Source of the DNA: Escherichia coli
GTDB taxonomy: Bacteria; Pseudomonadota; Gammaproteobacteria; Enterobacterales; Enterobacteriaceae
Strand: one strand, 5' to 3'
Assembly (NCBI RefSeq): GCF_045037415.1
Contig: NZ_CP173438.1
Length of the DNA stretch: 64,000 nt
Shown here: one piece after another, positions 5,056 through 20,195 of the stretch
Position numbering within the stretch: position 1 is the first letter of the stretch
How the letters are laid out: each line of letters starts with the position of its first letter
The notes under the pieces: model-generated
Told to the model about the DNA's origin: nothing
The model's database searches: none
Seen by the model: the letters and a program-made list of their open reading frames with translations, nothing else
Program-made: the position numbers and the translations under genes

Positions 5056-5787
5056 ATGAAAAAATGGAAATTACGTAGCGCGTTGATAGCATTAGCCGTG
5101 CTGCTGGCCGGTTGTTCCAGTAATGCGCAGTATAATAGCAGTGCATCGGGTAATGTCGGCACCGCCTGGGGTGGGGATGTGCACTCAACGGTTCAGGGCG
5201 TATCTGCTGAACGAGCCTGGCGCGATCCGGCAGAGATGATCGTTATTAGTTATTCGACTAATGTTCCTTCCGGCTACGACCGCGTTTATAGTATTCGTAT
5301 TAACGAACTGGAATATGCTATTCGCGATGGTAATTTTAATTCTCTACCTATTACGCGGGTTTATGATTCATCCAATAATGAACCACGCTATATTGTCCAT
5401 GCCAGAATCGGAATGAATTATCAATTATATATCCGTAATTACAGTCGTAACACCAACTACGAGATCGTTGCTACGGTTGATGGCCTGGATGTGCTGAACG
5501 GCAAGCAAGGTTCGCTGAATAACAACGGTTATATTGTGAATGCCGGAGATTCGTTAGCGATTAAAGGATTCCGCAAAGATAAACATACCGAAGCGGCTTT
5601 TCAGTTCGCCAACGTTGCTGATTCCTACGCAGCCAATTCGGCGCAAGGCGATGTGCATAATACCGGTGTAATCGGCTTTGCCGCCTTTGAATTACAAGGC
5701 CCGGCGCAAAACGCGCTGCCGCCGTGCTCTGGACAAGCGTTTCCGGCAGATAACAATGGCTATGCGCCACCACCGTGTCGGAAATAG
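5056..5787 (+). CDS. Hypothetical lipoprotein (243 aa), no recognised domain
   Basis: Signal peptide with lipobox LLAG|C (MKKWKLRSALIALAVLLAGCSS); Asn/Tyr-rich; about 36% GC in the sampled coding stretch; own RBS and terminator. Confidence 0.65.
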   Translation: MKKWKLRSALIALAVLLAGCSSNAQYNSSASGNVGTAWGGDVHSTVQGVSAERAWRDPAEMIVISYSTNVPSGYDRVYSIRINELEYAIRDGNFNSLPITRVYDSSNNEPRYIVHARIGMNYQLYIRNYSRNTNYEIVATVDGLDVLNGKQGSLNNNGYIVNAGDSLAIKGFRKDKHTEAAFQFANVADSYAANSAQGDVHNTGVIGFAAFELQGPAQNALPPCSGQAFPADNNGYAPPPCRK

Positions 5788-6843: not shown

Positions 6844-6874
6844 GCGCCAGATAAGAGGCGCACGGGTGATGTGT

Positions 6875-7265
<391 letters not shown>

Positions 7266-8308: not shown

Positions 8309-10300
8309 ATGTCCTCACGTAAAGAGCTTGCCAATGCTATTCGTGCGCTGAGCATGGACGCAGTACAGAAAGCCAAATCCGGTCACCCGGGTGCCCCTAT
8401 GGGTATGGCTGACATTGCCGAAGTCCTGTGGCGTGATTTCCTGAAACACAACCCGCAGAATCCGTCCTGGGCTGACCGTGACCGCTTCGTGCTGTCCAAC
8501 GGCCACGGCTCCATGCTGATCTACAGCCTGCTGCACCTCACCGGTTACGATCTGCCGATGGAAGAACTGAAAAACTTCCGTCAGCTGCACTCTAAAACTC
8601 CGGGCCACCCGGAAGTGGGTTACACCGCAGGTGTAGAAACCACCACCGGTCCGCTGGGTCAGGGTATTGCCAACGCAGTCGGTATGGCGATTGCAGAAAA
8701 AACGCTGGCGGCGCAGTTTAACCGTCCGGGCCACGACATCGTCGACCACTACACCTACGCCTTCATGGGCGACGGCTGCATGATGGAAGGCATCTCCCAC
8801 GAAGTTTGCTCTCTGGCGGGTACGCTGAAGCTGGGTAAACTGATTGCGTTCTACGATGACAACGGTATTTCTATCGATGGTCACGTTGAAGGCTGGTTTA
8901 CCGACGACACCGCAATGCGTTTCGAAGCTTACGGCTGGCACGTTATTCGCGACATCGACGGTCATGACGCGGCATCCATCAAACGCGCAGTAGAAGAAGC
9001 GCGCGCAGTGACTGACAAACCGTCCCTGCTGATGTGCAAAACCATCATCGGTTTCGGTTCCCCGAACAAAGCCGGTACCCACGACTCCCACGGTGCGCCG
9101 CTGGGCGACGCTGAAATTGCCCTGACCCGCGAACAGCTGGGCTGGAAATACGCGCCGTTCGAAATCCCGTCTGAAATCTATGCTCAGTGGGATGCGAAAG
9201 AAGCAGGCCAGGCGAAAGAGTCCGCATGGAACGAGAAATTCGCTGCTTACGCGAAAGCTTATCCGCAGGAAGCCGCTGAATTTACCCGCCGTATGAAAGG
9301 CGAAATGCCGTCTGACTTCGACGCGAAAGCGAAAGAGTTCATTGCTAAACTGCAGGCTAACCCGGCGAAGATCGCCAGCCGTAAAGCGTCTCAGAATGCT
9401 ATCGAAGCGTTCGGGCCGCTGTTGCCGGAATTCCTCGGCGGTTCTGCAGACCTGGCGCCGTCTAACCTGACCCTGTGGTCTGGTTCTAAAGCAATCAACG
9501 AAGATGCTGCGGGTAACTACATCCACTACGGTGTACGTGAATTCGGTATGACTGCGATTGCCAACGGTATCTCCCTGCACGGTGGTTTCCTGCCGTACAC
9601 CTCCACCTTCCTGATGTTCGTGGAATACGCACGTAACGCCGTACGTATGGCTGCGCTGATGAAACAGCGTCAGGTGATGGTTTACACCCACGACTCCATC
9701 GGTCTGGGCGAAGATGGCCCGACTCACCAGCCGGTAGAGCAGGTCGCTTCTCTGCGCGTGACCCCGAACATGTCTACATGGCGTCCGTGTGACCAGGTTG
9801 AATCCGCGGTAGCGTGGAAATACGGCGTTGAACGTCAGGACGGCCCGACTGCGCTTATCCTCTCCCGTCAGAACCTGGCGCAGCAGGAACGTACTGAAGA
9901 GCAGCTGGCAAACATCGCGCGCGGTGGTTATGTGCTGAAAGACTGTGCTGGTCAGCCGGAACTGATCTTCATCGCGACCGGTTCTGAAGTTGAACTGGCT
10001 GTAGCGGCATACGAAAAATTGACTGCCGAAGGCGTGAAAGCGCGCGTGGTTTCCATGCCGTCTACCGACGCATTCGACAAGCAGGACGCGGCTTACCGTG
10101 AATCCGTACTGCCGAAAGCGGTTACCGCTCGTGTTGCGGTGGAAGCTGGCATTGCTGACTACTGGTACAAGTATGTTGGCCTGAACGGTGCTATCGTCGG
10201 CATGACCACCTTCGGTGAATCTGCTCCGGCAGAGCAGCTGTTTGAAGAGTTCGGCTTCACCGTTGACAACGTTGTTGCGAAAGCAAAAGCGCTGCTGTAA
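8309..10300 (+). CDS. tktA: Transketolase 1
   Basis: 663 aa from [41 protein letters not shown]; thiamine-diphosphate enzyme. Confidence 0.96.
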
Positions 10301-10363
10301 TCGGTAAGATGCTTTGTGAGAAGGGCCGCAAATGCGGCCCTTCAGATTGTTGGCAAAGTGCGC

Positions 10364-10457
10364 GTTGTTTATGCCGGATGCGGCGTGAACGCCTTATCCG
10401 TCCTACAAGATTTTGCAAATTCAACATATTGCAGCCTGATAAGCGTAGCGCATCAGG
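10364..10457. repeat. REP palindromic units in the tktA 3' flank
   Basis: gccggatgcggcgtgaacgccttatccgtcctac and gcctgataagcgtagcgcatcaggc palindromes. Confidence 0.8.
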
Positions 10458-10483
10458 CAGTTTTGTCTTTGCTATCAGTCTCA

Positions 10484-10508
10484 AGGGCCGCGAAAGCGGC
10501 CTTTTTTT
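10484..10508 (+). terminator. Rho-independent terminator (tktA side), overlapping the stop codon of the SPFH gene
   Basis: ggccgcgaaagcggcc hairpin followed by ttttttt. Confidence 0.6.
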
Positions 10509-11415
10509 ACTTAGTAGAGATAAACGGAACTGTGCTGCCGGGGATCATGGTATCGGGCAGTTTACCGTCCCAACGCTCAGCAGTGGTGAGGGCAACAAGT
10601 CCGGGATTCTCCCGCAGAGCTTCACCGCGCAGGCGGATAGCTTCTGCTTCAGCCGCACTTTTTAAACGAATAGTTTCAGCCTCTGCCGCGCCTCTTACGC
10701 GAATGGTCTCAGCTTCTGCTTTGGCTGCCGCCAGTTTACTGTCTGCTTCTGCCTGGGCCTGAGTTACTGCTATTTGCGCTTGGATTTTCTCTGTTTCCAG
10801 ATTTTGCTTACGTGTGGCAATGGCGACTTCTGCTTTCATTCGGTCTTCAATCGACTTTTCATAAGCGTCAGAAAAATCAATATTTTCAATCTGGACACCA
10901 TCAATCACCACCGGGCCAACAACGGCTTTACGCATTGCATTTTGCAGATCCTGAACCAGTTTTGTACGATCCTGTACCGCGCTGATGGCGGTATATTGGC
11001 CGAAAACGTTCTCCAGTTGAGTTGGCAACTGACGGACAATCAGACGATCTTTTAATGCTTCAATGGTGTTGTAGGTGGTATAAACCGCGCCTGCTTCTGA
11101 AGGTTTAATGTGGAAGCTGACTGATACCGTCATTTGTGCCGGTTGCTGGTCGCGGCTGTAGGCCTGTAATCCCTGATAGACCACAGCCTGATTACGCGTG
11201 GAAATTTTCTCTACACTTTCCATAAAAGGGATCTTAAAACCCAGCCCCGGCTCGGCAACTTTTACGATTTTTCCGTAGCGCAGCAAAATGCCGCGTTCAC
11301 CTTCATTAACGGTGTAATACGAGAGAAATGGCAGCACAACCACGGCAAGCACGCCAATGGCGATAGCAATAGATTTTTGTGGGCGAAATGAGGTTATTGA
11401 AACAGGTGCTTTCAT
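10507..11415 (-). CDS. SPFH/band-7 (prohibitin/HflC-like) membrane protein, 302 aa
   Basis: N-terminal TM segment (SIAIAIGVLAVVVLPFLSYYTV), band-7 core, C-terminal Ala/Glu-rich repeats (AEAETIRVRGAAEAETIRLKSAAEAEAIRLRGEA). Confidence 0.75.
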   Translation of the reverse strand: MKAPVSITSFRPQKSIAIAIGVLAVVVLPFLSYYTVNEGERGILLRYGKIVKVAEPGLGFKIPFMESVEKISTRNQAVVYQGLQAYSRDQQPAQMTVSVSFHIKPSEAGAVYTTYNTIEALKDRLIVRQLPTQLENVFGQYTAISAVQDRTKLVQDLQNAMRKAVVGPVVIDGVQIENIDFSDAYEKSIEDRMKAEVAIATRKQNLETEKIQAQIAVTQAQAEADSKLAAAKAEAETIRVRGAAEAETIRLKSAAEAEAIRLRGEALRENPGLVALTTAERWDGKLPDTMIPGSTVPFISTK

Positions 11416-11792
11416 ATGAATCTTCCTTGAGTAAAGTATGGGAATATGTCACATGGGGGGAGGAGAAAACAGCTGGCAGGTGAGAATTCAGAATCTATAA
11501 AGGGGTATAGCGAAAAAACATTGCATTAGAAAAGTATGCTTTCGGACATTCAATAAATAAATAGAGATATGCATCACAAATACAATAACAAACAAAATAT
11601 TTATTTTGTGATAAACATAACAAATACAAAATTGACTTTAAAAATATCAATTTCATGTTGTTGTTATTTAAAGTTTTATTATTTTTACTCATGAGGTTTT
11701 TCTTCTCGCGTGCCCAATTGCTTTCATTAAACTGCACGAGTATTTTATTTTTACCGCCGGACGGTACCCTAAAAATAAAATAAGGATAATTT
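11416..11792. promoter_or_regulatory. AT-rich divergent promoter region between the SPFH gene and cmtB
   Basis: About 330 bp of very AT-rich sequence with short direct repeats (acaaatacaaaattgac); no credible ORF. Confidence 0.3.
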
Positions 11793-12236
11793 ATGCGGCT
11801 TATTGATTATTTTCCAGAATCATCAATCTCAGTTATACATTCAGCAAAAGACTGGCAGGAAGCTATCGATTTCTCGATGGCATCATTGCTGGATAAAAAC
11901 TATATCAGCGAGAATTACATTCAATCTATTAAAGACTCCACCATCAGCAATGGTCCTTATTATATTCTCGCACCAGGCGTGGCAATGCCTCATGCGCGAC
12001 CGGAATGTGGGGCGCTTAAAACCGGGATGTCTTTGACGTTACTTAAACAAGGCGTTTATTTCCCGGGGAAGGACGAACCGATTAAATTACTCATCGGGCT
12101 TTCTGCTGCCGATGCCAATTCGCACATTGGCGCTATTCAGGCGTTAAGTGAATTACTGTGCGAAGAAGAAATACTCGAACAACTCTTAACAGCATCATCA
12201 GAAAAACAATTAGCGGACATTATCAGCCGCGGATAA
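11793..12236 (+). CDS. cmtB: PTS mannitol-type EIIA component (cryptic)
   Basis: 147 aa, MRLIDYFPESSISVIHSAKDWQEAIDFSMASLLDKNYI; PTS EIIA-2 fold motifs. Confidence 0.9.
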   Translation: MRLIDYFPESSISVIHSAKDWQEAIDFSMASLLDKNYISENYIQSIKDSTISNGPYYILAPGVAMPHARPECGALKTGMSLTLLKQGVYFPGKDEPIKLLIGLSAADANSHIGAIQALSELLCEEEILEQLLTASSEKQLADIISRG

Positions 12237-16437: not shown

Positions 16438-17147
16438 AAATCGAACTGACGGTGAATGGACTAAAGGTACAGGCGCAGTACTCTGATGATGAAATTGAAA
16501 ATGTACATAAACCATTGCTGCGTATGCTGGCGGCCTTACAGACAGTAAATCCGCAGCGGCGTACGGTGGTTTTTCTTTGCGCTCCGCCGGGGACGGGTAA
16601 ATCTACCCTAACCACCTTCTGGGAATATCTCGCGCAACAAGACCCGGAACTGCCCGCTATTCAGACGCTGCCGATGGATGGTTTTCACCAGTACAATAGC
16701 TGGCTGGATGTGCATCAATTGCGACCCTTCAAAGGCGCACCAGAGACATTCAACGTTGCGAAACTGGCGGAAAATCTGTGCCGGGTTGTGGAAGGGGATT
16801 GTACGTGGCCGCAGTACGATCGACAAAAGCATGATCCTGTTGAAGATGTGTTGCACGTTACCGCACCACTCGTCATCGTCGAAGGAAACTGGTTGTTGTT
16901 GGACGACGAGAAGTGGTGCCAGCTTGCGCAATTTTGTGATTTCTCGATCTTTATCAAAGCTCCCGCATCTGCGTTGCGGGAGCGTCTGGTGGGGCGCAAG
17001 CTGGCGGGAGGGTTATCGCTGGCAGACGCAGAAGCCTTTTATGACCGTACCGACGGGCCGAATGTTCGCCGGGTGCTGGAAGAGAGTCTGCCTGCAAATT
17101 TGACCTTAATGATGACCGCTACGGGTGAATATCGTCTGATGGATTAA
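16434..17147 (+). CDS. yggC: P-loop kinase-like protein
   Basis: 237 aa; Walker A GTGKST; overlaps the yggD stop. Confidence 0.88.
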   Translation: MKIELTVNGLKVQAQYSDDEIENVHKPLLRMLAALQTVNPQRRTVVFLCAPPGTGKSTLTTFWEYLAQQDPELPAIQTLPMDGFHQYNSWLDVHQLRPFKGAPETFNVAKLAENLCRVVEGDCTWPQYDRQKHDPVEDVLHVTAPLVIVEGNWLLLDDEKWCQLAQFCDFSIFIKAPASALRERLVGRKLAGGLSLADAEAFYDRTDGPNVRRVLEESLPANLTLMMTATGEYRLMD

Positions 17148-17829
17148 CGTTCCTGATTACACCATCTTCCAGTCGCACCACACGAGAGAAATGACGCCGG
17201 GTAAATGCGGCGTCATGACTGATTGCTACGACGCTCGTGCCTCGCTGGCGGCACTTTTCCAGCCAGCTTTCAAACACGCTCAACCAATTTTCGTCAAAAT
17301 CCCGACTCGGCTCGTCCAGTAGCAATAGTGGCGGAGAGAGTGCTTCCAGGCAGGCGACGGCGACCATCCGTCGCTGCGCACTATGCAGATCTAACGGATG
17401 CGCGCTGGCAGTGTCTGCTAACTGACAGCATTGCAGGGCAGCATTGGTACGTTGAGTGATTTCATCCGCCGGGCATTTTTGCAGTATCAAACCAAATGCG
17501 ATTTCGTCAGCAACGGTGCTGTGAAAAAGCTGATTTTCCGCTTCCTGAAACAGTACGCCAATCTTTGCCGCGCGCTGGCGGTTTTTCAGGTTTTTCATCG
17601 CTTGTTGTTGCAGCATAACCGTACCGGCTGTGGGCGTAAGAAGACCTGCCATTACTCGTAACAGCGTCGATTTTCCCGCGCCATTGTCGCCGGTCAGCGC
17701 CAGCCATTCACCTTGTTTGAGTTGCAGAGAAATGTCGCAAAGACAATCCGTAGCCGCGCCAGGCCAGCGATAAGATATCTGATTTAACGTTAACATAGTG
17801 GCTGGAGCGCTCCGTTTTGCAATTGCCAC
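17119..17829 (-). CDS. ABC-type ATPase, second subunit (A'), with a degenerate signature motif
   Basis: Walker A GDNGAGKST; Walker B LLLLDEP; signature position reads LHSAQRRM instead of LSGGQ; H-loop ISHD. Confidence 0.8.
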   Translation of the reverse strand: MAIAKRSAPATMLTLNQISYRWPGAATDCLCDISLQLKQGEWLALTGDNGAGKSTLLRVMAGLLTPTAGTVMLQQQAMKNLKNRQRAAKIGVLFQEAENQLFHSTVADEIAFGLILQKCPADEITQRTNAALQCCQLADTASAHPLDLHSAQRRMVAVACLEALSPPLLLLDEPSRDFDENWLSVFESWLEKCRQRGTSVVAISHDAAFTRRHFSRVVRLEDGVIRNVNPSDDIHP

Positions 17830-18473
17830 GCTTGCTGGCAGTGGTTCAGGAAAGGTGTGTGATGACGTTCAAAAAGAATAATCAGCGAACCACGTTCAAG
17901 CGCCCAGTGTTGTAAGCGCTGCAACAGCATTTCGCGGGCCTGCGGCGTCAGGCGGCTAAAGGCTTCATCAAGAATTAAGAGCTTTGGCTGCATCGCGATG
18001 GCGCAGGCGATGACCACACGCTGTGTCTCTCCACCGGAGAGTGTTGCCGGGTGACGATGGCGCAACGGCTGGCACTCGGTCAGGGCCAGGGCGGCGTCAA
18101 TCCGCGCCATAATCTCTTTTTCAGCAAGACACAGATTTTCTGGCCCAAAGGCAACTTCTTCTTCCACGCTAAAGGTACAGCCGGAGAGCTGCAAATAGGG
18201 CGATTGCTGGACGAGCTGGATGGTGGCGGATTGTTCATTAAGCGGGAGACGCCCAATGGGCGTACCGAGAAGCGTCCCCGTGCCGGTTATCTCTCCTGGT
18301 AGAAAGTCCGGATACCAGCCCGCCATCAGCTGTGCCAGCGTACTTTTGCCACTGCCGTTGTCACCAAAGATGGCGACCATCCCCGGTTTGACATAGTGAA
18401 AGTCATAACAGAACGGAGGATGCGTTGAGTGTGTCGGGCAATAGCGAAACTGTTCTAACGTAACCATATCCAC
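17790..18473 (-). CDS. ABC-type ATPase (A), canonical motifs
   Basis: Walker A GDNGSGKST; signature LSGGETQR; Walker B LLILDEA; overlaps the downstream A' gene by 40 bp. Confidence 0.82.
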   Translation of the reverse strand: MDMVTLEQFRYCPTHSTHPPFCYDFHYVKPGMVAIFGDNGSGKSTLAQLMAGWYPDFLPGEITGTGTLLGTPIGRLPLNEQSATIQLVQQSPYLQLSGCTFSVEEEVAFGPENLCLAEKEIMARIDAALALTECQPLRHRHPATLSGGETQRVVIACAIAMQPKLLILDEAFSRLTPQAREMLLQRLQHWALERGSLIILFERHHTPFLNHCQQAWQLQNGALQPLC

Positions 18474-19162
18474 GCTCCGAATTCAGCCAGCATTAGCAAT
18501 ATCATGGCGTAACGTGCTACGCATTGTAGGGTGCTATCGGCTGGTGCCCATAACGTAGTGCGCCTATTGTTGATTCGAAATGCCCGCATATCCAGCGCCG
18601 CACCACGGACAGCAAGATCGTTTAGCGCATTGTGTGTTAGCGGAATAATTAACGCGGGCATCGCACGTAAACGCTGATACCAGCCCTCATCCAGCGGCAC
18701 GCCGCGGGCGCACTGCGCTTCATGAATAATCGCCAATTGCCGTTTTAACTGCTCAACGACCAATAACGGCCCGGCAAACAGATAAGCGACGCCCGGCGGC
18801 AGGCGAGAAGCAAACAAAGCGCGGATAAAACGTTGCACGGGGACGTACTGCATCCACAACTGTGAGGTTGAAACAATCGCCAGAATCCGCAACCAGAGCG
18901 TAATAGCATGCGCCCACCGTTCTGGAGAGTGTGGCGTGCCGCTTAGCCATTCTGTCAGCCAGCCACCGTGCACCAGCCACAGTCCAGCCCCCAGCGAGAA
19001 CATCAGCCAGACGACATATTTTGCCCGCCGCCGCGTGGCCTTTAGCGCAATAAGGCAGAAAAAGGTCGCCGCGCTATAGACTGGCAATATTGTCTGTGTA
19101 GGCAGGATAAGCGTGGTGCAGGCCGCCAGCGCCCACAGCGTTAAGGATGTAAAAGGATGCAT
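18455..19162 (-). CDS. ECF-transporter transmembrane T component (CbiQ/EcfT-like)
   Basis: 235-aa polytopic protein with the characteristic C-terminal A-x-x-ARG motif (AQCARGV); overlaps the ATPase gene by 19 bp. Confidence 0.65.
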   Translation of the reverse strand: MHPFTSLTLWALAACTTLILPTQTILPVYSAATFFCLIALKATRRRAKYVVWLMFSLGAGLWLVHGGWLTEWLSGTPHSPERWAHAITLWLRILAIVSTSQLWMQYVPVQRFIRALFASRLPPGVAYLFAGPLLVVEQLKRQLAIIHEAQCARGVPLDEGWYQRLRAMPALIIPLTHNALNDLAVRGAALDMRAFRINNRRTTLWAPADSTLQCVARYAMILLMLAEFGAWIWLR

Positions 19163-19741
19163 TTAGCGCACGGCAGCCATTGCCGGAAAATGGCGCGTGG
19201 TGCGAATCGGCAGCTGACGCAGTAAAAGCCAGACTATCACCGCTGTAAGAATTTTATCGACCAGGTTCGCGCCTATCACCGTAATCGCCACCGACTCCAC
19301 CAGGTTTTGCCCCATCGAGTGCATCCAGGCAACGAACAAATCGGCTCCGCTTCCTGTCACGCCGCCGAACAGCGCAGTACGCAGCGGTACAGCGACGACC
19401 GTTACCGCAAGCGTAATAATCACGCCGCTAACAACGACTTTTGGCAGGGTGCGAAACCAACCCGCTCGCGCCAGCCAACCGGCGACCAGGCCGATGACCA
19501 TCGCGACGGGCGCAAATGCGGCGGCGATCGGGTCGGTCAGCAATCCCCAGAGTAAATTGGTCAGTAAACCGGTCAGCATCCCGATTATCGGACCAAGCAG
19601 TACCGCGCTAATAAGTGTGCCGATGGAGTCGAGAAAAATAGGTAATTTAACCATGCTGGCCAGTTGCCCGCCGATCATATTGATGGCGATAGAGATAACG
19701 ATCAACACCAGTGCCTGACTGGAAAAGTGGCGACGCGCCAT
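19163..19741 (-). CDS. Small integral membrane protein, candidate ECF substrate-specific (S) component
   Basis: About 192 aa with roughly 5-6 TM helices; motifs FLDSIGT and VLLGPIIG typical of S components. Start taken at MARRHF (ATG 19741) with GAGAGG RBS; the track ORF starts further upstream at 19840. Confidence 0.6.
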   Translation of the reverse strand: MARRHFSSQALVLIVISIAINMIGGQLASMVKLPIFLDSIGTLISAVLLGPIIGMLTGLLTNLLWGLLTDPIAAAFAPVAMVIGLVAGWLARAGWFRTLPKVVVSGVIITLAVTVVAVPLRTALFGGVTGSGADLFVAWMHSMGQNLVESVAITVIGANLVDKILTAVIVWLLLRQLPIRTTRHFPAMAAVR

Positions 19742-19763
19742 AAGAAAACCTCTCTGAAAATAG

Positions 19764-20195
19764 TTATTTAACGGGGGAAATATGCAACTCGTCGTAACCA
19801 GAAAGCGCGCAAAGCTGGCGGCTAAACGCCAGTTCCTCAAGGCAGCCGATCACCAGTTCAAGCGTGGTCCGCACGGTACAGCCGGGCATCATATGACCGC
19901 CAAGCATCGTGCCGTGTGGATCGGAAACGCAGAGATGAAGATGTTCACCACTCTGTTCCAGCGTGCCGTTCAATGCGATGACTTCGAACTTACCGCTTAG
20001 CAGGGCAGTGTTTTCTTGCCCGGCATAGCGTAAGGCGACGTCAGTCAGACTGCCGGTACAACCTGCAATCCACGCGGCGTGAAGTTGTTGTTGCTGCGCG
20101 AAGGCGCGTAATTGGGAGAGAACTTCCTGCCCGGGGAGCAGGCGCAGCGCGTAAAAGCGTGCGGAGGAAGAATATGGGTAGGGCAATGTCATCAT
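19764..20195 (-). CDS. PPC/DUF296-domain protein, first gene of the cluster
   Basis: 143 aa, MMTLPYPYSSSARFYALRLLPGQEV...GKFEVIALNGTL...HLHLCVSD; 22 bp upstream of the S-component gene. Confidence 0.6.
   Translation of the reverse strand: MMTLPYPYSSSARFYALRLLPGQEVLSQLRAFAQQQQLHAAWIAGCTGSLTDVALRYAGQENTALLSGKFEVIALNGTLEQSGEHLHLCVSDPHGTMLGGHMMPGCTVRTTLELVIGCLEELAFSRQLCALSGYDELHISPVK

What the first reader, a model, noticed from the sequence alone, without database searches (positions are those of the whole stretch)
10507..11415. Orphan SPFH/band-7 membrane protein inserted between tktA and cmtB
A 302-aa prohibitin/HflC-like protein with an N-terminal TM anchor sits where I recall K-12 having only a short tktA-cmtB spacer (b2935 and b2934). 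Its stop codon overlaps the tktA terminator T-run. Bacterial SPFH genes are usually paired with an NfeD-family partner, but none is present; the only upstream ORF is AT-rich junk. That makes it an orphan SPFH gene at a REP-flanked junction.
Basis: partly seen in the sequence, partly recalled or inferred. Interest (0 to 1): 0.5.

Follow-up and report, generated by a model that had tools for sequence, protein, structure and literature searches.

The report
Stand-alone HflC-like membrane scaffold gene
This is a real, well-conserved gene for a membrane-scaffold (SPFH/Band 7) protein that one third of E. coli strains keep next to tktA. K-12 has lost it, so it is an ordinary, already-annotated accessory gene rather than a new insertion.

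Summary
The ORF at 10507..11415 (-) is real: 302 aa with a full-length Band_7/SPFH domain (Pfam E = 5.6e-32), one N-terminal membrane anchor, a strong Shine-Dalgarno site and dN/dS of 0.01-0.03.

K-12, W and O157:H7 lack it, with a 313-bp tktA-cmtB spacer in K-12 and W. It is present, single-copy and chromosomal, in 1830 of 5426 complete E. coli genomes. All sampled copies are annotated 'prohibitin family protein', and the gene is 100% identical in JJ1886.

The 'insertion' reading is wrong in direction. The same convergent tktA/SPFH arrangement, with the same shared terminator hairpin, occurs in E. albertii, E. whittamii, a cryptic Escherichia clade, Pseudocitrobacter and Kluyvera. Klebsiella spallanzanii has the matching epd-side flank. 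The K-12 state is therefore a derived, strongly diverged replacement allele.

The missing NfeD partner is normal. The protein sits in the HflC/HflK/prohibitin branch, for which no NfeD partner is known, and 80 homologous loci share no conserved neighbour.

It most likely forms a periplasm-facing homo-oligomeric SPFH cage on the inner membrane. That step is inferred, not shown.

A side observation is that 50-73% identical homologues sit on conjugative plasmids (some inside or beside tra/T4SS clusters), in an ICE-like element and in jumbo phages.

Interest is low and the function is untested.

The parts
8309..10300 (+). tktA (transketolase 1), convergent neighbour. Its last ~450 bp are 6-7% diverged from K-12, against 1-2% in the 5' part.
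10320..10343 (.). First copy of the hairpin GAAGGGCCGC-AAAT-GCGGCCCTTC, just after the tktA stop. It corresponds to the left half of the single ancestral terminator seen in Pseudocitrobacter and Kluyvera.
10346..10482 (.). BIME: two inverted REP units (10373-10406 and 10434-10458), lying between the duplicated hairpins. The unit is repeated genome-wide and amplified to three tandem units in Escherichia sp. MOD1.
   Evidence: (sub-threshold naRNA4/REP-derived match)
10483..10509 (.). Second hairpin plus T-run, a terminator-like site shared by the convergent genes. The SPFH stop codon TAA (10509..10507, minus strand) lies in the T-run.
10507..11415 (-). Gene for the stand-alone SPFH/Band 7 protein (302 aa, no cysteine). 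Signal-anchor helix at residues ~12-33, SPFH domain 33-181, long helix 183-269, and the conserved C-terminal ERWDGKLP...VPFI motif. 100% DNA match to the RefSeq CDS WP_000646924.1, 'prohibitin family protein'.
10657..10689 (-). Extra 11-residue coiled-coil unit AAEAETIRLKS (residues 243-253), present in the E. coli and E. albertii sequences and absent from all 29 other family members aligned.
11416..11518 (-). 5' region of the SPFH gene, absent from K-12. It holds the Shine-Dalgarno AAGGAAG (11428..11422, 6 nt before the ATG), a possible extended -10 TGACATATT (11451..11443, inferred only), and the palindrome ATTCTGAAT (11486-11494), whose region is conserved across four genera.
   Evidence: the strict promoter scan found nothing
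11519..11710 (.). AT-rich block upstream of cmtB. It is homologous to the K-12 spacer but only ~50% identical, which is as far as E. albertii is from E. coli. This is the diverged part of the replacement allele.
11711..11792 (+). cmtB-proximal leader, 98% identical to K-12. This is the right-hand breakpoint of the polymorphism.
11793..12236 (+). cmtB (PTS mannitol IIA), followed by cmtA, yggP and the yggF/glpX-like gene.

Best explanation
SHOWN. The ORF is an intact gene under strong purifying selection. It encodes a stand-alone SPFH (Band 7) inner-membrane protein of the HflC/HflK/prohibitin branch. It is a fifth E. coli SPFH paralogue, distinct from HflK, HflC, QmcA and YqiK, and closest to HflC (24% identity). 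It is the ancestral occupant of the tktA 3' flank in Escherichia and several related genera, convergent with tktA and sharing one terminator hairpin. About two thirds of E. coli, including K-12, W and O157:H7, instead carry a strongly diverged replacement allele. In that allele, ~1.2 kb (BIME, gene and gene-proximal promoter region) is replaced by ~40 bp holding a different terminator. The lack of an NfeD partner is the rule for this branch.

INFERRED. Three basic residues precede the single N-terminal helix, and its register with HflC is preserved, so the helix should anchor the protein N-in. The SPFH domain, an ~87-residue helix and a conserved C-terminal WDGKLP...VPF segment would then face the periplasm. 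Like HflK/C and prohibitin, the protomers probably assemble into a closed ring or dome on the membrane. Such a cage would fence off a patch of inner membrane and its client proteins, possibly FtsH or another envelope machine. It would act as a membrane-protein quality-control or microdomain scaffold that is dispensable in many lineages.
For: Gene reality:
- ORF and Band_7 domain.
- Shine-Dalgarno AAGGAAG 6 nt upstream of the ATG.
- dN/dS of 0.009-0.06 against six orthologues.
- 1830 of 5426 genomes carry it; it is single-copy and annotated 'prohibitin family protein' in every listed genome.

Branch assignment:
- Profile against PDB: HflC 3e-20, HflK 2e-12, prohibitin 3e-10, QmcA 1e-7, stomatin 1e-6.
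- BLASTP against K-12 paralogues: HflC 4e-16, HflK 5e-9, QmcA 2e-7, YqiK 0.05.
- AF2 model with pLDDT 82, showing TM, SPFH domain and an 87-residue helix.
- Foldseek best hits: HflC at 1e-17, then PHB1/2 and erlin cage protomers.

Topology:
- One hydrophobic segment at residues 15-33, with +3/0 charge before it.
- In-register alignment with the HflC N-terminus.

Ancestral position:
- Synteny in Escherichia, Pseudocitrobacter and Kluyvera, plus the matching epd-side flank in Klebsiella spallanzanii.
- A shared terminator sequence.

Replacement allele:
- 1816 genomes with the SPFH haplotype plus 3569 with the K-12 haplotype account for 99% of genomes.
- ~50% identity in 11519-11710, next to 98% in 11711-11792.
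- A divergence gradient in the tktA 3' end.

No partner:
- No conserved neighbour in 80 loci.
- No YbbJ/YqiJ relative in those loci or in the window.
- Literature: no NfeD for SPFH3, 4 and 6-12 (PMC2636767).
Against: - No experimental data on this protein were found.
- Oligomerisation, periplasmic orientation and any client (FtsH or other) are inferred from homology only. The C-terminal 30 residues are modelled with low confidence (pLDDT below 50), as expected for a monomer model but uninformative.
- No consensus sigma-70 promoter was found by the strict scan.
- Ancestry rests on synteny in a handful of genera. Many Enterobacteriaceae were not recovered at this locus by the pattern-based scan, so repeated loss versus transfer by flanking homologous recombination cannot be fully separated.
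- Hinderhofer et al. noted that prohibitin-like genes rarely co-occur with hflKC, yet E. coli has both. Simple redundancy with HflKC is therefore not obvious.
Confidence: 0.8

Rival explanations
1. One reading: a horizontally acquired orphan gene inserted into a formerly short tktA-cmtB spacer at a REP junction.
For: The gene is absent from K-12, W and O157:H7. A BIME lies next to it. Its GC content is 48.8%, against 56% for tktA. Family members do move on plasmids, ICE-like elements and phages.
Against: The same position, orientation and terminator are found in E. albertii, E. whittamii, a cryptic clade, Pseudocitrobacter and Kluyvera. dS scales with species distance: 0.10 within E. coli, 0.25-0.34 to cryptic clades, 0.69 to E. 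albertii and 1.4 to Pseudocitrobacter. There are no direct repeats, integrase or IS. The K-12 spacer is not an empty site but a different, ~50% identical sequence with its own terminator. The GC content is close to the window mean of 51%.
Confidence: 0.04
2. The protein is not a self-sufficient cage. Instead it co-assembles with, or substitutes for, HflC in HflK/C rings, tuning FtsH activity in the strains that carry it.
For: HflC is the closest relative by sequence, profile and fold. The N-terminal anchor and first strands align in register with HflC. Eukaryotic prohibitins and HflK/C are obligate hetero-oligomers (established knowledge; PDB entries).
Against: Identity to HflC is only 24%. 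The family occurs as a single gene on plasmids and jumbo phages and in many taxa, with no conserved partner, which argues for homo-oligomers. The HflC equivalog models are missed by a wide margin.
Confidence: 0.1
3. The family is primarily a mobile-element accessory that supports or insulates trans-envelope machines such as conjugative T4SS or phage infection. The chromosomal copy would then influence conjugation or phage outcome rather than housekeeping quality control.
For: Full-length homologues (48-74% identity) are on 58 genuine plasmid records (59 matches, one of which is a mislabelled E. coli chromosome); 32 of the 59 are typed conjugative. One lies inside the F-type tra operon between traB and traV on Enterobacter IncFII plasmids. 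Another lies directly upstream of SLT-VirB2-VirB3-VirB4 on a Salmonella plasmid. One is in a K. oxytoca ICE-like region. Homologues also occur in Eneladusvirus/GAP32-type jumbo phages at ~50% identity over 89% of the length.
Against: There is no PADLOC match. The chromosomal tktA-linked clade is vertically inherited with housekeeping neighbours. On pCAR1 the gene is not next to transfer genes. Cargo genes of many kinds ride on megaplasmids and jumbo phages. There are no functional data.
Confidence: 0.1
4. Degraded or non-expressed remnant.
For: No consensus promoter was found by the strict scan, and the gene is dispensable in two thirds of strains.
Against: The reading frame is intact in every orthologue examined. 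dN/dS is 0.01-0.03, the SD site is strong, and 47 residues are invariant across 32 diverse homologues.
Confidence: 0.01

Closest known systems
HflC (with HflK) of E. coli, the FtsH-modulating SPFH cage (PDB 7vhp, 7wi3, 9cz1)
   Same: Same overall architecture: a short cytoplasmic N-terminus, one TM helix, an SPFH domain starting with the (V/T)xEGERG(I/V)xLRxGK motif, a long coiled-coil helix and a C-terminal cap segment. It is the best sequence, profile and fold match. Periplasmic orientation is predicted for both.
   Different: Only 24% identical, and far below the HflC equivalog cut-offs (60.5 vs 134.4 bits). It is a single gene, not paired with hflK and not in the hfq-hflX-hflKC operon. It lacks the HflC insertion after the first strands. 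It is strain-variable, whereas hflKC is conserved. No FtsH link has been shown.
Prohibitin-like bacterial SPFH proteins (subfamily SPFH4 of Hinderhofer et al. 2009) and eukaryotic prohibitins PHB1/PHB2
   Same: Monocistronic with no NfeD partner. Size is ~280-300 aa, with an N-terminal anchor and a predicted extracytoplasmic orientation. RefSeq names it 'prohibitin family protein'. PHB1/2 are second-rank fold hits and profile hits at 3e-10.
   Different: By our searches it is closer to HflC than to prohibitins. Hinderhofer et al. reported that SPFH4 rarely co-occurs with HflK/C, whereas E. coli has both. Eukaryotic prohibitins are hetero-oligomers of two paralogues.
QmcA-YbbJ and YqiK-YqiJ (NfeD-partnered stomatin- and flotillin-type SPFH operons of E. 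coli)
   Same: Band 7 domain and a membrane-anchored cage protomer fold (PDB 8z5g).
   Different: Those are co-transcribed with an NfeD gene and face the cytoplasm. This gene has no NfeD neighbour in the window or in 80 homologous loci. It is also much more distant from them in sequence (QmcA 2e-7, YqiK 0.05).
Plasmid and jumbo-phage 'prohibitin family' or 'SPFH domain' proteins (e.g. pCAR1 WP_011077945.1, Enterobacter pMS7884B WP_045340601.1, Serratia phage BF gp022)
   Same: Same family: 50-73% identity over ~90% of the length, including the C-terminal WDGKLP...VPF motif.
   Different: The N-terminal anchor sequences differ, since matches begin at residue ~30. They lack the extra 11-residue coiled-coil unit. 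They are carried on mobile elements, sometimes inside or next to T4SS gene clusters, rather than at the tktA locus.

Membership tests
SPFH / Band 7 superfamily (Pfam PF01145) | Significant full-length match to the Band_7 HMM | tested here: met
   E = 5.6e-32, residues 35-210, model positions 2-176 of 176
SPFH / Band 7 superfamily (Pfam PF01145) | Protomer architecture: membrane anchor, alpha/beta SPFH domain, long coiled-coil helix and C-terminal segment | tested here: met
   AF2 model (pLDDT 82): helix 12-32, strands and helices 33-181, helix 183-269. Foldseek probability 1.0 to HflC, PHB1/2, erlin, stomatin and QmcA cage protomers.
SPFH / Band 7 superfamily (Pfam PF01145) | Assembly into membrane-attached ring or cage oligomers | not testable with these tools
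   Only a monomer could be modelled, and the C-terminal 30 residues have low confidence.
HflC (NCBIfam TIGR01932 / NF008259 equivalogs) | Score at or above the curated equivalog cut-off | tested here: not met
   60.5 bits vs a cut-off of 134.4, and 53 bits vs 427
HflC (NCBIfam TIGR01932 / NF008259 equivalogs) | Adjacent hflK partner, in the hfq-hflX-hflK-hflC operon in gamma-proteobacteria | tested here: not met
   The neighbours are tktA (convergent) and cmtB (divergent). The true operon is elsewhere in the genome. The window holds no second SPFH ORF.
NfeD-partnered SPFH operons (SPFH1 stomatin-type, SPFH2 flotillin-type, SPFH5) | NfeD-family gene in the same operon | tested here: not met
   No ORF is conserved in the 377-bp upstream region. 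phmmer with YbbJ and YqiJ found nothing significant in the window or in the neighbours of 80 homologous loci. There is no conserved neighbour cluster. Single-sequence phmmer has limited sensitivity.
Prohibitin-like bacterial SPFH (SPFH4, Hinderhofer 2009; RefSeq 'prohibitin family protein') | Single-gene unit without NfeD or a second SPFH gene | tested here: met
   the subfamily description is in PMC2636767
Prohibitin-like bacterial SPFH (SPFH4, Hinderhofer 2009; RefSeq 'prohibitin family protein') | Closest similarity to prohibitins rather than to other SPFH subfamilies | tested here: inconclusive
   Prohibitin is hit at 3e-10, but HflC (3e-20) and HflK (2e-12) score better. The original subfamily HMMs were not available, so placement within the HflK/C-prohibitin branch is firm but SPFH4 versus an HflC-like offshoot is not.
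Prohibitin-like bacterial SPFH (SPFH4, Hinderhofer 2009; RefSeq 'prohibitin family protein') | Extracytoplasmic (periplasmic) orientation of the SPFH domain | tested here: inconclusive
   The positive-inside rule (+3 before the TM, net 0 after it) and the in-register HflC alignment predict N-in/C-out. There is no experimental test.
Known anti-phage defence systems (PADLOC-DB v2) | Match to any defence-system protein model | tested here: not met
   0 families at E <= 0.01

The most novel reading that the evidence does not exclude
This would be a portable, self-sufficient HflC-like cage module that laboratory E. coli happens to have lost. Conjugative plasmids have recruited it repeatedly, both inside an F-type tra operon and upstream of VirB-type T4SS genes. 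So have an ICE-like element and jumbo phages. That pattern would imply a role in supporting or insulating large trans-envelope machines, or in manipulating FtsH for the benefit of the element. The chromosomal copy in ST131 and other B2 strains would then modulate conjugation, phage infection or envelope-stress tolerance.
Probability: 0.1. Interest if true: 0.5.

Novelty: already known. Interest (0 to 1): 0.17.

Why it matters
Work on bacterial SPFH 'flotillin-like' proteins in E. coli is based on K-12, which has four of them (HflK, HflC, QmcA, YqiK; PMC10434171, PMC13086221). One third of sequenced E. coli carry a fifth, strongly conserved, HflC-like paralogue that has never been studied. These strains include ST131 (JJ1886) and ST73 (ABU 83972).

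If SPFH proteins are partly redundant, phenotypes measured in K-12 multiple mutants may not transfer to clinical lineages. The locus is also a clean example of an apparent 'insertion relative to K-12' that is really a loss or replacement in the K-12 lineage. Beyond that, the gene is an ordinary member of a catalogued family.

Tried and rejected
- PADLOC defence models gave no hit.
- The strict sigma-70 promoter scan of 10250-11850 found 0 sites, so the promoter proposal rests only on cross-genus conservation.
- Rfam gave only sub-threshold REP-derived matches (naRNA4, ES036) in the BIME and nothing in the AT-rich region.
- blastn with word size 7 found no remnant of the SPFH gene in the K-12/W spacer. 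Only the AT-rich cmt-upstream block aligns weakly.
- Neighbour clustering of 80 loci produced only antisense shadow ORFs of the gene itself and genus-level synteny blocks. A 158-aa ORF upstream in Shewanella does not resemble E. coli YbbJ or YqiJ.
- Literature searches for the E. coli gene (cmtB/tktA/prohibitin; 'prohibitin family protein' with E. coli; SPFH with uropathogenic) found nothing relevant.
- Tandem Repeats Finder did not report the 33-bp coiled-coil duplication at the DNA level. It is visible only in the protein alignment.
- Phylogroup assignment of all 5426 genomes could not be done with these tools. Only named reference strains were placed, using my own knowledge of their phylogroups.

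Full report
**Observation.** The window holds an ATG-started ORF of 302 codons at 10507..11415 on the minus strand. It lies between tktA (8309..10300, +) and cmtB (11793..12236, +), which is followed by cmtA, yggP and a glpX-like gene.

- The product has a full-length Pfam Band_7/SPFH domain at residues 35-210 (E = 5.6e-32).
- It has a single strongly hydrophobic segment at residues 15-33 and no cysteine, so it is not a lipoprotein.
- An AAGGAAG Shine-Dalgarno sequence lies 6 nt before the ATG.
- The stop codon (10509..10507) lies in the T-run that follows a GC-rich hairpin at 10483..10504.

**Distribution in E. coli.**

- A megablast of the gene finds it in 1830 of 5426 complete genomes. It is single-copy, chromosomal but for one plasmid-located place, and annotated 'prohibitin family protein' in every listed genome. 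The gene is 100% identical in ST131 strain JJ1886.
- The whole tktA-cmtB interval of the window is found in 1816 genomes.
- The K-12-type interval is found in 3569 genomes. Together these two haplotypes account for 99% of genomes.
- K-12 MG1655 and W have a 313-bp spacer and no gene there. O157:H7 genomes carry the K-12-type interval.
- ABU 83972 has the gene.

**Direction of the event.** The 'insertion' reading does not hold.

- E. albertii, E. whittamii, a cryptic-clade Escherichia, Pseudocitrobacter and Kluyvera intermedia all have the orthologue (82-99% protein identity), convergent with tktA.
- In Kluyvera the cmt cluster is absent and the other neighbour is epd-pgk-fbaA. Klebsiella spallanzanii shows the same epd-side flank, though its contig ends before tktA.
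- In Pseudocitrobacter and Kluyvera the two stop codons are ~46 bp apart, separated by one hairpin (GAGAAGGGCCGCGAAAGCGGCCCTTTTTTTA).
- In Escherichia the same hairpin is duplicated around a BIME, and the hairpin+BIME unit is amplified to three tandem copies in one cryptic-clade strain.
- Synonymous divergence scales with species distance: dS is 0.10 within E. coli, 0.25-0.34 to cryptic clades, 0.69 to E. albertii and 1.4 to Pseudocitrobacter. dN/dS is 0.009-0.06 throughout.

This is the signature of a vertically inherited, functional gene.

**The K-12 allele is a replacement, not an empty site.**

- Homology with the window stops at the tktA stop codon and resumes at 11711.
- In between, K-12 has ~40 bp with a different terminator, followed by an AT-rich block. 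That block aligns with window 11519-11710 at only ~50% identity. This is as far as E. albertii is from E. coli in the same block; cryptic clades are ~80% identical there.
- The adjacent 82 bp are 98% identical.
- The last ~450 bp of tktA are 6-7% diverged between K-12 and the window, against 1-2% in the 5' part.

The K-12 state is therefore a derived replacement allele. It is either ancient or was imported by recombination from a distant lineage lacking the gene.

- Hinderhofer et al. (PMC2636767) found NfeD partners only for the stomatin-type (SPFH1), flotillin-type (SPFH2) and YqfA-type (SPFH5) subfamilies. They stated that none could be identified for HflK/C (SPFH3), prohibitin-like (SPFH4) or the remaining subfamilies.
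- This protein belongs to the HflK/C-prohibitin branch. A family profile hits HflC at 3e-20, HflK at 2e-12, prohibitin at 3e-10, QmcA at 1e-7 and stomatin at 1e-6.
- BLASTP against the K-12 paralogues gives the same order, with 24% identity to HflC.
- It misses the HflC and HflK equivalog cut-offs by a wide margin, so it is a separate paralogue.
- In 80 homologous loci from Gamma- and Alphaproteobacteria, the only gene clusters shared by more than 19 loci are the gene itself and its antisense shadow ORFs.
- phmmer with E. coli YbbJ and YqiJ finds nothing significant in those neighbourhoods or in the 64-kb window.
- The 80-aa ORF upstream is not conserved in other Escherichia.

Being a single gene is the normal state for this family.

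**Structure and probable mechanism.** An AlphaFold2 model built on 32 homologues has mean pLDDT 82. It shows a helix at 12-32, an alpha/beta SPFH domain at 33-181, one uninterrupted helix at 183-269 and a low-confidence C-terminal tail.

- Foldseek places it with the full-length cage protomers: HflC (7vhq_G, 1e-17), then PHB2/PHB1, erlin1/2, HflK, stomatin and QmcA.
- The N-terminus carries three basic and no acidic residues before the anchor.
- The anchor and the following TVNEGERGILLRYGK motif align in register with HflC. This predicts an N-in, periplasm-facing orientation as for HflK/C.
- The C-terminal ERWDGKLP...VPFI segment is nearly invariant across the family. I infer it is the oligomerisation cap.
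- My best reading is a homo-oligomeric dome on the periplasmic face of the inner membrane that corrals membrane proteins. Oligomerisation, orientation and clients are inferred, not shown.

**Wider family.** More than 3700 relatives were scored at E <= 1e-5.

- Full-length homologues at 48-74% identity occur on 58 genuine plasmid records; of the 59 matches in that search, 32 are typed conjugative and one is a mislabelled E. coli chromosome.
- In Enterobacter IncFII plasmids the gene sits between traB and traV inside the F-type transfer operon.
- On a Salmonella plasmid it lies directly upstream of SLT-VirB2-VirB3-VirB4.
- In K. oxytoca it lies in an ICE-like region.
- On pCAR1 it is not next to transfer genes.
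- Jumbo phages of the GAP32, Eneladusvirus and fHe-Yen9 groups encode ~50% identical copies among early small genes, and PHROG 200 matches.
- No PADLOC defence model matches.

This mobility is the only feature that hints at something beyond housekeeping. I give the mobile-element-function reading about 10%.

**Literature and novelty.** Searches found no study of the E. coli gene. Recent SPFH surveys treat E. coli as having HflK, HflC, YbbK/QmcA and YqiK (PMC13086221). The protein is already catalogued in RefSeq: the 100% identical CDS in strain AH21C062 is WP_000646924.1. The subfamily was described in 2009.

**Verdict.**

- Observation confirmed.
- Interpretation partly supported.
- Novelty: already known.
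- Interest about 0.17. The value lies in showing that K-12 has lost an ancestral fifth SPFH paralogue retained by ST131 and other clinical lineages, and in the unexplained recruitment of the family by conjugative elements and jumbo phages.

Noticed in passing
window 5056..5787 (+): A 243-aa predicted lipoprotein gene (signal peptide with lipobox LAGC), annotated 'hypothetical protein', sits between speA and speB. K-12 has only a 137-bp speA-speB spacer. A 242-aa ORF occupies a similar position in some Kluyvera contigs.
   Followed up: no
window ~17119..20195 (-): A cluster of two ABC ATPases, an ECF T component, an ECF S component and a PPC-domain DNA-binding protein lies between the yggC-like kinase gene and epd. 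From memory, K-12 has yggC directly next to epd, so this looks like another K-12-absent segment. This was not verified.
   Followed up: no
window 6869..7264: A tandem array of 3.5 copies of a 113-bp REP/BIME unit (95% matches) lies between speB and loiP. It generates several overlapping spurious ORFs.
   Followed up: partly
L013:4907-5484 (Escherichia sp. MOD1-EC7003); window 10320..10509: The terminator hairpin plus BIME between tktA and the SPFH gene behaves as a ~177-bp repeat unit. There is one hairpin and no BIME in Pseudocitrobacter and Kluyvera, two hairpins around one BIME in E. coli, E. albertii and E. whittamii, and three tandem units in the cryptic-clade strain.
   Followed up: partly
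window 10657..10689 (residues 243-253): The E. coli and E. albertii proteins carry one extra 11-residue coiled-coil unit (AAEAETIRLKS) relative to all 29 other homologues aligned. This would lengthen the long helix by about three turns. E. albertii also has a 3-residue QGL duplication near residue 80.
   Followed up: partly
window 11486..11494, and the aligned positions in L004, L006, L012, L015 and L092: A palindrome ATTCTGAAT, within CTTTATAGATTCTGAATT, lies ~75 nt upstream of the SPFH start. It is conserved, with small variations outside Escherichia, in Kluyvera, Klebsiella spallanzanii and Pseudocitrobacter although the surrounding DNA is not. It may be a regulator site.
   Followed up: no
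L096:4905-5789; L094:5001-5885; L093:4001-4903; L098:3932-4789: Homologues of the gene lie inside an F-type tra operon (between traB and traV) on Enterobacter IncFII plasmids, directly upstream of VirB-type T4SS genes on a Salmonella plasmid, in a K. oxytoca ICE-like region, and among early genes of jumbo phages.
   Followed up: partly
window ~9850..10300 (tktA 3' end) and 11519..11710: Divergence between the K-12 haplotype and the SPFH haplotype rises sharply towards the indel: 9-11 mismatches per 150 bp at the tktA 3' end, and ~50% identity in the AT-rich block. It drops to 2% within 82 bp of cmtB. This suggests an ancient or imported allele in K-12-type strains.
   Followed up: yes
L001:8703-9018 (E. 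coli ABU 83972): In ABU 83972 the yggF/glpX-like class II fructose-bisphosphatase downstream of yggP is annotated as a truncated fragment plus a short ORF, so it is probably a pseudogene. It is intact (321 aa) in the window.
   Followed up: no
PLSDB record NZ_CP134663.1: A 4.9-Mb E. coli record in the plasmid collection carries the gene at 99.3% identity. Its size suggests a chromosome filed as a plasmid, so the single 'Escherichia plasmid' near-identical hit should be ignored.
   Followed up: no
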